64,000 bases of DNA from Stegostoma tigrinum (lineage: Eukaryota), in the NCBI RefSeq assembly GCF_030684315.1, contig NC_081396.1, forward strand, positions 992,001-1,056,000, in the 5' to 3' direction. Shown here piece by piece: positions 21,994 through 57,102 of this stretch (position 1 is its first letter; each line of letters opens with the position of its first letter). The notes beneath the pieces were generated by a model. The model made no database searches, was not told where the DNA came from, and saw nothing but the letters and a program-made list of their open reading frames with translations. Made by a program: the position numbers and the translations under genes.

Positions 21994-22477
21994 ATAGAGC
22001 CACTCAGCATCAGTGTTGTGTGGAGAGCAATTCTAACTGGCAATTGTGGAGGAAATGGAATTCATATTTCTTCACCAAATCATAGGCTTAAATGATAATT
22101 TACATCTGAAGTTTGTGTTCCCTTTCGGAGTTGAATCTTGGAAATTTTGTCACTCAGTCACTGTCCTCAGATGTTCGGACAGAAGGAAAGGTGGTGGCTA
22201 TAAGCTGCAGGTATGATACTACATGGAGGGTCTATGTATTATACTGGTACTGAGAGCACTTAAGTACGCAGCCCGAGTATATAATGTGGAAAAGTAATAT
22301 TGAAAATGAGGATAAAGCAGATTTTGCTAGAGGTCGCTTCTCTGCTGAGTTTCCAATTGCGAATAAATTCACCAGCCTGATGATCACTGCACTAAACCTG
22401 ACTGACGCTCTCATGTATTACTGTGCTCTCAGGGATGGCACAATGATGATACACAGTCTTTCTCCTGTACAAAAACC
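21994..22477 (+). pseudogene. TCR V pseudogene with near-consensus RSS
   Basis: ATG>ATA, donor GT>GC, acceptor CAG>CGG, WY*(TGA) in FR2. The 3' part is open (DALMYYCALRD). RSS CACAATG-23-ACAAAAACC at 22439-22477. Confidence 0.92.
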
Positions 22478-39830: not shown

Positions 39831-42439
39831 GGGCTTTTTATTCCTTACACCGGCACCTTTGGTACTCCACACCTGACCACCTCTGTAATCTCCACACTGA
39901 CCTGCTCTGAAATCTCCGCTCTAACGAGCACTATTATTGCTGCTGATTATCATTGTAATACGCACGCTGATACTCTCCAAAATCCCATCTTTAACGAATT
40001 CTGTCATCCCAAGCTGTAAAATCCGCAGTCCAAGCACTGGCATTTTTTTTAAAACACCAACACTGAATATATCTGTTCCCTCCACACTGACTCACTCTTT
40101 ACTTGCCACATGGATTTGCTCTGCATTCCAATAAAACTGCCACTGGAATCCCTTAACTGATAATCTCTGTGATTCGCACACTGACACATTCTGTTATCAG
40201 AATACATGAGCAGCTGGTCCTATGCCCAACATGATTCACTCTGTAGTCCCGACAATGAACGCAGCTGTCGATCTCACTTTAACTTCTGTGTTATCGCCGT
40301 ACTGACCAATTGTGTGCATTGAAACTGAGTCTTTCTCTGAGTCTCAAGCAGTAACTCTCAATTCCGACTTTTAAATTAGCGTTGATAATGAAATGGTGCT
40401 ACTACACAGTACCCCACGGGTGAGCTGGACTTTGTGTATTTACATCAGACATAGATTTTAGGCGATCAATGACTTGTGTTCTCAAACCAACCCTCCCTCC
40501 TGCCGATTCATAAACATTTGTGTCAGAGAATCAGAATCTAACAATCCACAAAACTGTTTTGTGTATGAGTGACTGGAGGGCAGATTGTCTCATTTAGTGC
40601 AGCCTCATGAAGGATGATGCTGCAGAGGCCTATTGCTCACCTTCTTGCTTTCTTATCCCCTGCGTATCTCAAATTACTTTCCCCTCAAGTTTTAAGAGTT
40701 TATCAATTTCTTTGTTAATTCCCACCCCGAGGAGAGGAACATGAGCCCGAGTCACACTGGCTTAATTACTGCTGTTTTACATTACTAGTTGCACAGTCGA
40801 AGATGACATTAACTCAGCCAGAGGCTGATGTAGGGATCCCCCGACAGTCTTTGGACTGACTTGTTAAACCAACGGGTTCAGAGCCGAAAACTATACCATG
40901 TGTTGGTGGAAACGGCGGCCTGGGAATGGCTTGAAATTGTTAATTTGGCACTACAGAGAAAACAGAAAAAGAAAACTCCAGAGTTTAAAGAACGAGTGAA
41001 TACTTCCAAAGACCATTCAGAAAATAACTTCTCTGGATGTCAGAACATTGAGCATATGTGACAGCACAACATATTATTGTACAGGGCACAGAAAAACTGA
41101 CAAAACAAAAAAAAACACAAGAGGAAATGTTGTTTTCCCCTCGATTCTCAAAGCACAAATTGGCTCATAACTGTCAGTGGCTCAGCTATTTAGACCAGTG
41201 TGAACTGATAAAGGAAATCTGTCTAATCTGCATATTTTTGCAGGTGACTCATCTTCTGCTTCATAATATCTTCACCACTACTTCCTTCACAGAACTGGCA
41301 GTTTGAAATATATTTATGTTTTAGCTTTCTCTAAGAATTGCTTTTCTTTCCTTTTTTGCCAGTAATTCACTTGCGAGCCTCAAAGAGTTTTTCATTGTTC
41401 AAAGAGAACATGACTGATCCAATAATATTCAACTGCACATTTCTGCGTTTACTCCAGAAGCTTTGATTCCCTCTTTTTTGAAACGACATCTTTTATTCAG
41501 CCTTGAACATACAGAGGACTTCACAATCAGTTGTACATAATTCCACAGATTCCTTCCTGTCTGGGTAAATATCCCCCTCAATCCTCTCTTAAATTTGCGA
41601 CTGCGAACTCAAAGATTACGACTTCTATTCAGAAACTCTTCCACGGGGAGAAACAACATTTATGTTTCTGCGGTGTCAGATATTAATTGTACACTTTTGG
41701 TACACGTGGGATTGAAATTGGTACTTCGTCATCAACAGTAGGGACACTACCAAAACGTCACATTCTACGCCCCGCCCCAATCACAACTGTGGCTCGTGCA
41801 TATACCGAAAAAAAAATCAGGGTGATAAGCAAAAAGTATGTTTCTCATTGTCAATTTTCTGCAGAATTCCAGTTTTAATTTAGTGGTGTTCTAATGCGAT
41901 TGGTTCCAGACTAGAATGTCCAGGGGTAGAGGTAAATGACTGGTCTGGTAAGAGATATGAAGAAGTGAAGAAATTAGGACTTTTCACCGCCTTAGGGAGA
42001 CAGGTGAAGTTCATCTGTCGTCGACGAGAATCTAACTTTCAACCTATCTTGGCGATCAAACCGACTAAAGTTGTGAGATCTGTTCAGTGTTTACAAAATA
42101 TCCCTGATCCAAAAACTCCCTCTTGGCAAACACGCACTCTAGCAAAGGTGTGACTTCTGGAAATGGCATTGGAGATGCAGAAATCAATTTTCAGTATGAT
42201 GGACAGGTGAACAAAGAAAAGCAGAGAATGAAAGAAATATTAAAATATCACCAGTAAATTGATGCATGCTAACTTGACATGGGAGTGGGAGGCAGAAAAG
42301 TCTTATACTGGACTTGATGACTGTATTGGACTGTACGAGTTGATCTGCTTTCCGTTTGAATGGTGTGGTGTGCTGCTGTCCTCCATATGAGGCAGTCCAA
42401 AATGAGTATAGTCTTCTGAAAAAAACAGTGGATGCTGTA

Positions 42440-44152: not shown

Positions 44153-44605
44153 ATGTGGCTGCTCAGCATCTGGGTTGTGTTGGTCACATTTCTAACGGGT
44201 AAATGTGGAAGAAATGGAATTCATATTCTTTTATTAAATCATATATTTAATTGATGTCAGCCTGACATTGTGCAATTAATATCTATTTTCTCTTTCAGAC
44301 CTGAGTCGTGGAGATTCAGTCACTCAGTCACTCTCTTCAGATGTTCAGACGGAGGGAGCGGCAGTGACTCTAAGTTGTAACTATGAGACTACAAAGAGCT
44401 CTTATTGGATATACTGGTACCGGCAGTACCCAGGCACGCAGCCCGATTATATACTGAGGAAAAGTACTGGAGGCAATGAGGATAAGGCAGATTTTGCGAA
44501 AGATCGTTTCTATGTAGAGCTTCAAAAATCGAAGAAACTCACCAGATTCACTATCACTGGATTAGAGCTGAGCGACACTGCTGTGTATTACTGTGCTCTC
44601 AGGGA
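44153..44605 (+). CDS. TRAV/TRDV: TCR alpha/delta V gene, apparently functional (leader 44153-44198, V exon 44299-44605)
   Basis: Leader MWLLSIWVVLVTFLT/G. DLSRGDSVTQ...TLSCNY...IYWYRQYPG...DTAVYYCALRD is open. Confidence 0.95.
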
Positions 44606-44644
44606 CACAATGATTGCAAACAGTCTCACTCTTTTACAAAAACT
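44606..44644 (+). promoter_or_regulatory. 23-RSS
   Basis: CACAATG + 23 nt + ACAAAAACT. Confidence 0.94.
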
Positions 44645-47755: not shown

Positions 47756-48246
47756 ATGTGGTTGCTCAGCATCTGGGTTGTGTCGGGCACATTTCTAACA
47801 GGTAAATGTGGGAGAAATGAAATTCACATTCTTTCAACAAATCATATATTTAATTGATGTGGGTCTAACATTGTGCAGTTGACATCTATTTTTTCTTTCA
47901 GACGTGAGTCGTGGAGATTCAGTCACTCAGCCGCTTGCCTCAGATGTTCAGACAGAGGGAGCGGTAGTGACTCTATGTTGCAACTATAAGACTACAGAAA
48001 GCTCTTATTGGATATACTGGTACCAGCAGTACCCAGGCAAGCAACCCGATTGTACACTGAGGACATATTCTGGAGGCAGTGAAGATCAGGCAGATTTTGC
48101 GAAAGATCATTTCAAGTAGAATTTCAAACCTCGAAGAAGTTCATCAGATTCACTGTCACAGGATTAGAGCTGACTGACACTGCTGTGTATTACTGTACTT
48201 TCTGGGACACAGTGATTGCAAACAGTCTCACCCTTTAACAAAAAAC
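47756..48246 (+). pseudogene. TCR V pseudogene (frameshift), paralog of the 44.2 and 51.9 kb genes
   Basis: Leader 47756-47801 and splice sites intact. A 1-nt deletion gives FK* at ~48117. RSS CACAGTG-23-ACAAAAAAC at 48208-48246. Confidence 0.92.
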
Positions 48247-51863: not shown

Positions 51864-52316
51864 ATGTGGCTGCTCAGCATTTGGTTTGTGTCGGTCACAT
51901 TTCTAATGGGTAAATGTGGAAGAAATGGAATTCATATTCTTTTATCAAATCATATATTTAATTGATGTCAGCCTGACATTGTGCAATTAATATCTATTTT
52001 CTCTTTCAGACCTGAGTCGTGGAGATTCAGTCACTCAGTCACTCTCTTCAGATGTTCAGACGGAGGGAGCGGCAGTGACTCTAAGTTGTAACTATGAGAC
52101 TACAAAGAGCTCTTATTGGATATACTGGTACCGGCAGTACCCAGGCACGCAGCCCGATTATATACTGAGGAAAGGTACTGGAGGCAGTGAGGATAAGGCA
52201 GATTTTGCGAAAGATCGTTTCTATGTAGAGCTTCAAAAATCGAAGAAACTCACCAGATTCACTATCACTGGATTAGAGCTGAGTGACACTGCTGTGTATT
52301 ACTGTGCTTTCTGGGA
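51864..52316 (+). CDS. TRAV/TRDV: TCR alpha/delta V gene, apparently functional (leader 51864-51909, V exon 52010-52316)
   Basis: Leader MWLLSIWFVSVTFLM/G. The V exon is open, nearly identical to 44299-44605, and ends YYCAFWD. Confidence 0.95.
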
Positions 52317-52355
52317 CACAGTGATTGCAAACAGTCTCACTCTTTTACAAAAACT
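52317..52355 (+). promoter_or_regulatory. 23-RSS
   Basis: CACAGTG + 23 nt + ACAAAAACT. Confidence 0.96.
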
Positions 52356-56628: not shown

Positions 56629-57063
56629 ATGAGGTCGCTAAGCTTTCTTCCTCTTCTTCTTGCTTTCATATCCAGTGCGTAGACCTAATTGTTTCTTTCA
56701 AGAAAATTTTAACCTGGTTTGCAGTTTCTCAGTTTAATTAATTTTCCTTTGCTTCACTAGGTGCCCAATCTGAAGTATTGTTGACTCAACAGGAGGAAGT
56801 CATGGGAATTGCTGGACAGCCTCTGAGACTGACATGTAAAACCAGCGGTTTTGATCTGGGTACCTACACTATGTACTGGTACAAACAAAGTCCTGGGAAT
56901 GCTCCACAATGGTTAGTTTGGCATTATACTGAAGACAGCAACGGTTTTAATCCAGAGGTTGAAAACCGAGTTGATGCTTACAAAGACCTTACAAACAATA
57001 TGTTCACTTTGGATATCAGACCTTTGAGGGTTTCAGATAGTGCAACATATTATTGTGCAAGAG
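56629..57063 (+). CDS. TAILV: Immunoglobulin heavy-chain-like V gene inside the TCR V array (TCR-associated Ig-like V); leader 56629-56674, V exon 56761-57063
   Basis: Leader MRSLSFLPLLLAFIS/SAQS, resembling shark VH leaders. EVLLTQ...LRLTCKTSGFDLGTYTMYWYKQSPGNAPQWLV...KDLTNNMFTLDI..L...DSATYYCAR is open, with GT..AG splice sites. Confidence 0.9.
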
Positions 57064-57102
57064 CACAGTGAGACAGATCAGATCCAAACCTGAACAAAAA
57101 CC
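57064..57102 (+). promoter_or_regulatory. Perfect-consensus 23-RSS
   Basis: CACAGTG + 23 nt + ACAAAAACC. Confidence 0.97.

What the first reader, a model, noticed from the sequence alone, without database searches (positions are those of the whole stretch)
56875..56935. The IgH-like V has a TCR/light-chain-type FR2 (WYKQSPGNAPQWLV instead of WVRQ..GLEWL)
Seen: the VH scaffold lacks the canonical VH interface residues (Val after Trp; GLEW) and carries Tyr and A-P-Q. This resembles the WYRQ..P motif of the neighbouring TCR Vs and of VL domains. Inference: the pairing surface may have been remodelled to dock with a TCR gamma/beta V rather than an Ig light chain, by convergence or by conversion from a TCR V.
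Basis: partly seen in the sequence, partly recalled or inferred. Interest (0 to 1): 0.7.

Follow-up and report, generated by a model that had tools for sequence, protein, structure and literature searches.

The report
Antibody gene with T-cell docking face
This is an intact antibody-heavy-chain-type gene segment inside a shark's T-cell receptor alpha/delta region, and its partner-binding surface carries tyrosine and proline like T-cell-receptor and light-chain domains, likely through point mutations that suit it to pairing with the receptor's gamma chain, a pattern also seen in opossum and bird relatives.

Summary
Confirmed: FR2 reads WYKQSPGNAPQWLV (56877-56918) in an intact IgM-like V gene with a perfect 23-RSS, 88 kb from D-delta in a shark TCR alpha/delta locus: a TAILV-type segment, a known kind. 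IMGT 42/49/50/52 are Y-A-P-W, not V-G-L-W; the VH Trp52 is kept. The proposed refutation fails: 0 of 24 cluster IgM/IgW VH have Tyr42 or Pro50. Tyr42 marks the orphan clade (5 of 5 intact genes here, three other sharks); Pro50 only 2 of 5. Conversion from neighbouring TCR Vs is not supported: FR2 is 49% identical to V-delta, 84-86% to close paralogues. Opossum V-mu-j, reported to pair with V-gamma, has the same Y-A-P-W, and 7 of 8 VH domains next to a TCR delta/mu constant domain have Tyr42. Best reading: point-mutation convergence towards V-gamma pairing. Pairing and expression are untested; retention of an ancestral Tyr42 is not rejected (AU p 0.14-0.19). The scan noted the mixed-V layout in two other shark genomes. 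The TAILV paper was not readable, so novelty of the FR2 point is uncertain.

The parts
56629..56674 (+). Leader exon (MRSLSFLPLLLAFIS, phase-1 intron follows)
   Evidence: similar leaders in paralogues L002-L004, L006
56675..56760 (+). 86-bp leader intron, GT...AG
56761..57063 (+). V exon of an orphan IgM-like VH (TAILV-type), open frame, both Cys and Trp41 present; mature domain from 56772
   Evidence: VH fold predicted, pLDDT 84.7, top Foldseek matches mostly VH/VHH chains
56877..56918 (+). FR2 IMGT 41-54 WYKQSPGNAPQWLV; hallmark positions 42/49/50/52 = Tyr/Ala/Pro/Trp at 56880, 56901, 56904, 56910
57064..57102 (+). Perfect 23-spacer recombination signal; no D or J signal in the 1.5 kb behind it
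40799..41092 (+). Decayed VH-like V (L030, several stops), probably a second member of the same family in the window; not placed on a tree
52018..52317 (+). Nearest conventional V-delta-type gene (FR2 WYRQYPGTQPDYIL), tested as a conversion donor

Best explanation
This is an intact orphan IgM-type VH gene in the TCR alpha/delta V array whose FR2 carries Tyr42-Ala49-Pro50-Trp52, likely reached by point mutations after the lineage left antibody use, and it would join D-delta/J-delta by inversion to make a delta chain predicted to pair with V-gamma. Shown: anatomy, position 88 kb from the single D-delta found and on the opposite strand to D-J-C, clade membership, FR2 residues. Inferred: Tyr42 was fixed once in the ancestor of the shark orphan clade (present in catshark, basking shark and bamboo shark); Ala49/Pro50/Gln51 came later by single-base steps within the clade; the changes tune, rather than enable, packing against V-gamma.
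For: Locus map: C-alpha 843-844 kb, J array 850-916 kb, C-delta 944-947 kb, at least 9 J-delta, one 12/23 D at 961 kb, all on minus; this V on plus at 1,048.8 kb. Orphan clade 99/99 with FR2 masked, beside or inside IgM VH in all best trees; orphan+IgM 98/95 on DNA. Tyr42 in 5 of 5 intact orphans with TAC/TAT both used, and 3 of 3 orthologues in other sharks; 0 of 24 cluster VH. G-L, G-P and A-P states all occur in the clade and differ by single bases (GGT/GCT, CTA/CCA). FR2 has the lowest pN/pS of five regions, 0.31-0.40 (rough pairwise). All 7 gamma-type and 12 of 13 delta-type Vs have Tyr42. Opossum V-mu-j (7K0Z) reads WYLWTPGHAPLW, also Y-A-P-W and pairs with V-gamma (PMC7615758 passages). 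7 of 8 VH domains next to a TCR delta/mu C have Tyr42 against 7 of 84 other VH domains (hand-corrected). One clade of shark orphans plus all tetrapod Tyr42 VH rejected, p 1e-5; plus marsupial V-mu-j alone, p 0.02.
Against: No transcript, rearrangement or pairing was observed. Unmodified IgM/IgW V exons are used in shark TCR-delta chains (PMC5931798), and a terrapin VH-C-delta model has Val42 (P0168). Pro50 is in only 2 of 5 intact paralogues and also in an S. torazame IgM model and 5 other non-Tyr VH domains. A tree with the orphans basal to all VH (Tyr42 ancestral) is not rejected, p 0.19 protein and 0.14 DNA. The 7-of-8 count covers three lineages, rests mostly on automatic gene models and came from searches seeded with Tyr42 sequences.
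Confidence: 0.55

Rival explanations
1. Ancestral retention: the orphan lineage split before VH acquired Val42 and simply kept the Tyr42 shared by TCR and light-chain V domains; nothing was remodelled at 42.
For: Tyr42 is near universal in the non-VH V genes examined (37 of 38). A basal position is not rejected (AU p 0.186 protein, 0.142 DNA). Flajnik 2025 describes V domains intermediate between TCR and Ig in this region (PMC12227049 section 6).
Against: All best trees put the orphans with IgM VH to the exclusion of IgW (98/95 on DNA; 100); framework DNA identity is 61-62% to IgM against 51-54% to IgW (FR1, FR3); Callorhinchus, IgW and most bony-vertebrate VH carry Val/Ile42.
Confidence: 0.15
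2. Relaxed constraint: once freed from light-chain pairing the VH face drifted; Tyr42 and Pro50 are tolerated, not selected for V-gamma.
For: Positions 49-51 vary among paralogues (G-L-E, G-L-Q, G-P-E, A-P-Q); 4 of 9 tabulated orphans are pseudogenes; unmodified VH also work in TCR-delta.
Against: FR2 has the lowest pN/pS; Tyr42 needs two base changes from Val/Ile and is kept across four sharks; the same residue recurs in bird and marsupial TCR-linked VH.
Confidence: 0.15
3. Gene conversion: FR2 was copied from a TCR V (or a light-chain V) into a VH scaffold.
For: V-delta and VH genes are interleaved and duplicated together. With all sites, a triplet test gives Bonferroni p 0.028 for light-chain donors. 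Same-residue FR2 codons are identical to alpha-type Vs in 24 of 45 cases, above IgM (38 of 95); best single FR2 identity 65% is to an alpha-type V.
Against: FR2 identity to V-delta averages 49% (max 57%), below IgM (57%) and far below close paralogues (43-44 of 51). The light-chain signal disappears when the first two bases of codons 42/49/50 are dropped (p 0.63) or only third positions are used (p 1); best V-delta donor raw p 0.012 in 114 tests; the alpha excess is absent in paralogue L003 (13 of 42). An ancient tract of one or two codons cannot be excluded.
Confidence: 0.07
4. Unpaired, nanobody-like V domain, as in NAR-TCR or the distal V-mu.
For: Tyr42 is also a VHH hallmark option (YQRL, YERW; PMC12591594).
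Against: VHH motifs have Arg50 and Glu/Gln49; here 49/50/52 are Ala/Pro/Trp, the pairing-type set. No D-J or supporting V cassette follows the gene. The unpaired V-mu has a polar FR2 (WHWNPSGSNRQF), unlike this one.
Confidence: 0.05

Closest known systems
[quoted passage not shown] 2019; not held, seen only as cited in PMC12227049)
   Same: IgH-like V inside the TCR alpha/delta V array, 23-RSS, no own D-J-C, distinct clade from cluster VH.
   Different: No named TAILV sequence was retrieved, so orthology is inferred from position and type. Whether its FR2 Tyr42 was described could not be checked. Here at least 9 members, 5 intact, in both orientations.
Marsupial TCR-mu V-mu-j (PDB 7K0Z; PMC7615758)
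   Same: VH-derived domain on a delta-related C; identical hallmark set Y42-A49-P50-W52; reported to pair with V-gamma.
   Different: Germline-joined, invariant, structural, under a second unpaired V; separate locus; separate origin favoured (AU p 0.02, long branch).
VH-delta of birds, turtles, amphibians, platypus (PMC3457774, PMC5278385)
   Same: VH used with D-delta/J-delta/C-delta; mousebird model has Tyr42 (P0170); four turtle/bird VH models of unverified locus also have Tyr42.
   Different: Derived from tetrapod VH, not shark IgM VH; one terrapin VH-C-delta model keeps Val42.
Shark cluster IgM VH and their trans-rearrangements to TCR-delta
   Same: Sister or parent group; 42-54% amino-acid identity for the C55 genes.
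   Different: V/I42-G-L-E-W; each sits in a V-D-D-J-C cluster 2-4 Mb away.

Membership tests
[quoted passage not shown] | IgH-like V sequence | tested here: met
   Groups with IgM VH in all trees; VH-type structural matches
[quoted passage not shown] | Located in the TCR alpha/delta locus among TCR Vs, without own D-J-C | tested here: met
[quoted passage not shown] | Forms a lineage distinct from cluster VH | tested here: met
   99/99 with FR2 masked; 100/99 on DNA
[quoted passage not shown] | Orthology to the published nurse shark TAILV sequences | not testable with these tools
   No named TAILV among hits; paper not held
[quoted passage not shown] | Expressed rearranged to TCR C and not to IgH C (definition recalled) | not testable with these tools
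   No RNA holder listed; the catshark V+C-delta protein P0012 is an automatic model of unrearranged DNA
Cluster IgM VH | V followed by D-D-J-C within a cluster | tested here: not met
   No D/J signal within 1.5 kb; no 12-spacer signal at 2 or fewer mismatches in 992-1456 kb
Cluster IgM VH | FR2 V/I-G-L-W hallmark | tested here: not met
   Y-A-P-W
VHH-like autonomous V | Glu/Gln49 and Arg50 | tested here: not met
   Ala49, Pro50; hallmark definition from PMC12591594
VH/TCR-V conversion chimera | DNA tract closer to a TCR V donor than to VH, including silent sites | tested here: not met

The most novel reading that the evidence does not exclude
Whenever an antibody VH becomes a dedicated TCR delta/mu domain, it re-evolves the same V-gamma docking face (Tyr42 first, often Pro50, keeping Trp52): independently in sharks, marsupials and birds/turtles. 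Tyr42 would then be a sequence marker telling T-cell-dedicated VH from antibody VH, as the VHH hallmarks do for nanobodies.
Probability: 0.35. Interest if true: 0.62.

Novelty: new member of a known kind. Interest (0 to 1): 0.42.

Why it matters
The gene type is known. What may be new is a simple, testable structural rule for how antibody V domains adapt to life in a gamma-delta T-cell receptor: one interface residue fixed across four sharks and matched in opossum TCR-mu. It gives a two-residue experiment on VH/V-gamma pairing and a marker for spotting T-cell-dedicated VH genes in new genomes. It also weighs against gene conversion as the route.

Tried and rejected
Expression: no RNA holder listed; says nothing either way. 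Complex prediction not run: one job cannot compare V-gamma, V-beta and VL partners, germline Vs lack the J-encoded strand that completes the interface, and any Ig V pair tends to pass by likeness to solved structures. Single-domain model and Foldseek only confirm a VH fold. First triplet test had a permutation floor of 0.002 and was redone. Exact-word protein search at near length found nothing. Tetrapod Tyr42 VH as one clade is not rejected (p 0.18), so the number of independent tetrapod origins is open. Deiss 2019, Ott 2021, Matz 2021, Criscitiello 2010, Parra 2010 and Morrissey 2021 are not held. Nine answered full-text searches beyond and including (4, 10, 21, 22, 48, 51, 67, 88, 89) showed no paper on FR2 of TAILV or VH-delta in their listings; with the primary papers unread this is weak evidence of novelty. 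No supplements were read.

Full report
Observation. The window holds seven V-delta-type genes with good 23-spacer signals and one VH-type gene, all on the plus strand. The VH gene has a leader exon at 56629-56674, an 86-bp intron, an open V exon at 56761-57063 and a perfect 23-RSS at 57064. FR2 is WYKQSPGNAPQWLV at 56877-56918. At the four FR2 positions that face the partner domain (IMGT 42, 49, 50, 52; VGLW in classical VH, PMC12591594 passages) it has Tyr, Ala, Pro, Trp. So three of four differ from VH and Trp52 is kept. Contigs of four runs from one sample show no FR2 difference, and three missense differences elsewhere in the exon.

Locus. The window is G000:C55:992001-1056000 of a 3.2-Gb genome. 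A constant-region query whose best solved relatives are human TCR delta chains found C exons at 944-947 kb and 843-844 kb on the minus strand. Mapping showed a long J array at 850-916 kb, at least 9 J segments at 950-960 kb and one 12/23 D at 961 kb. I read these as C-alpha, J-alpha, C-delta, J-delta, D-delta from the layout. The VH lies 88 kb from the D, on the opposite strand, so joining would be by inversion, as for most Vs between 971 and 1130 kb. No D or J follows it. This matches TAILV, named in PMC12227049 (sections 6 and 15 read); the primary paper is not held.

One search scored 150 of 229 candidates and gave 102 matches; I examined the best 30 loci and 40 more stretches. Of 19 IgM-type and 5 IgW-type cluster VH, none has Tyr42 (Val 14, Ile 8, Phe 2) and all 24 have Leu50. 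Of 9 orphan VH tabulated between 1.05 and 1.19 Mb, 8 have Tyr42 and 5 have Pro50; among the 5 without stops, Tyr42 5, Pro50 2, Trp52 5. One decayed copy (L030) and three fragments were left out. Orthologues from catshark (XP_038644089, a model that splices the V to C-delta), basking shark and Chiloscyllium punctatum all have Tyr42, one of three Pro50. So Tyr42 is the clade trait and A-P-Q a variant. Class labels for gamma, beta, alpha and light-chain Vs are my assignments from recalled motifs and the tree.

Origin of the scaffold. With FR2 masked the orphans form one clade, 99/99, inside or beside shark IgM VH; on DNA orphan+IgM is 98/95. That makes Tyr42 a reversal. But forcing the orphans to the base of all VH is not rejected (p 0.186 and 0.142), so ancestral retention stays open. 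The alignments are short (86 residues, 258 bases).

Conversion test. FR2 DNA of this gene is 43-44 of 51 identical to four close paralogues, 57% to IgM VH, 49% (max 57%) to 13 V-delta, 57% to light chains and 58% (max 65%) to alpha-type Vs. In 114 triplet tests the best V-delta donor had raw p 0.012. Light-chain donors reached Bonferroni p 0.028 on all sites, but 0.63 once the first two bases of codons 42/49/50 were dropped and 1 on third positions. Same-residue codons were identical in 48 of 63 cases with paralogues, 38 of 95 IgM, 15 of 59 V-delta, 12 of 43 light chain, 24 of 45 alpha-type; the alpha excess is absent in paralogue L003 (13 of 42). Paralogues show G-L-E, G-L-Q, G-P-E and A-P-Q, linked by single-base steps. 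Resemblance is therefore at the protein level. A very short, ancient tract cannot be excluded.

Other lineages. [quoted passage not shown] Among 94 VH-type domains found in the 182 proteins held, 8 stand directly before a TCR delta/mu constant domain by my reading of the sequences (the script flagged only part of them): 7 have Tyr42 (2 shark, 1 bird, 4 marsupial), 1 terrapin has Val42. Two distal V-mu were set aside. Of the other 84, 7 have Tyr42: one VHH-type, two Callorhinchus with Arg50, and four turtle/bird models whose locus I could not verify. One origin for shark orphans and all tetrapod Tyr42 VH is rejected (p 1e-5), with marsupial V-mu-j alone weakly (p 0.02). Limits: three lineages, automatic gene models, searches seeded with Tyr42 queries.

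Mechanism. Most likely RAG joins this V by inversion to D-delta/J-delta, the chain pairs with gamma, and Tyr42 (present in 7 of 7 gamma-type and 12 of 13 delta-type Vs here) with optional Pro50 gives a TCR-like packing face while the loops stay antibody-like. Joining to a J-alpha, and so pairing with beta, is allowed by the 12/23 rule and not excluded. Steps shown: anatomy, position, residues, clade. Steps inferred: rearrangement, expression, partner, selection. FR2 has the lowest pN/pS among regions in the intact orphans (0.31-0.40, rough). Against necessity: ordinary IgM and IgW V exons are used in shark TCR-delta chains (PMC5931798 passage).

Novelty. The gene class is known, and two unreviewed notes of this scan report the mixed-V layout in other shark genomes. 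I saw no paper on the FR2 signature in the search listings, but the key papers could not be read. Papers seen: PMC12227049 (abstract, two sections, passages); PMC7615758, PMC3457774, PMC5931798, PMC5278385, PMC12591594, PMC13113880 (passages only). Verdict: real, a new member of a known kind, with a moderately interesting convergence lead; interest 0.42.

Noticed in passing
G000:C55:971-1130 kb (includes the whole window): Nearly all V-delta and VH-like genes nearest to D-delta lie on the strand opposite to D-J-C, so they would join by inversion; from about 1131 to 1195 kb the Vs are on the other strand.
   Followed up: partly
G000:C55:961056-961073 (L092 region): Only one D segment with 12/23 signals was found between the V array and J-delta at the thresholds used.
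   Followed up: partly
L099-L102 (G000:C60:3.37-3.47 Mb): A light-chain V family with FR2 WYRQKPGEAPVWVI, also Y-A-P-W, the nearest protein look-alike of the finding's FR2 in this genome.
   Followed up: yes
window 56935, 56980, 57022: A second sequenced sample differs by three missense changes in this V (Asp-Gly in CDR2, Tyr-Ser and Pro-His in FR3); allele or close relative.
   Followed up: partly
window 44307-44606 and 52018-52317; G000:C55:1081818-1086459: Two near-identical V-delta copies in the window, and a similar V-delta-plus-VH pair repeated 37 kb further on: tandem duplications carried both V types together.
   Followed up: no
window 22140-22436 and 47910-48208: Two V-delta pseudogenes with good recombination signals (a stop in FR2; a frameshift), plus several decayed V fragments.
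   Followed up: no
L123, L124, L130 (G000:C55:5.4-5.74 Mb): V genes resembling the supporting V of NAR-TCR chains, with G/A-L at 49-50, lie more than 4 Mb from the C-delta mapped here, beyond the IgM clusters; no second C-delta was found.
   Followed up: no
L028 (G000:C54) and L098: Two cluster-type VH with Phe42 and altered 49-52 (TLEI; RLEW), on a different contig from the main clusters.
   Followed up: no
about 250-420 bases upstream of the V exon in L001, L002, L003, L006: L001 and L003 carry a CRE-like AGACGTCA, L002 and L006 an octamer-like ATTTGCAT upstream; none of four cluster VH checked showed either. No chance control was run.
   Followed up: no
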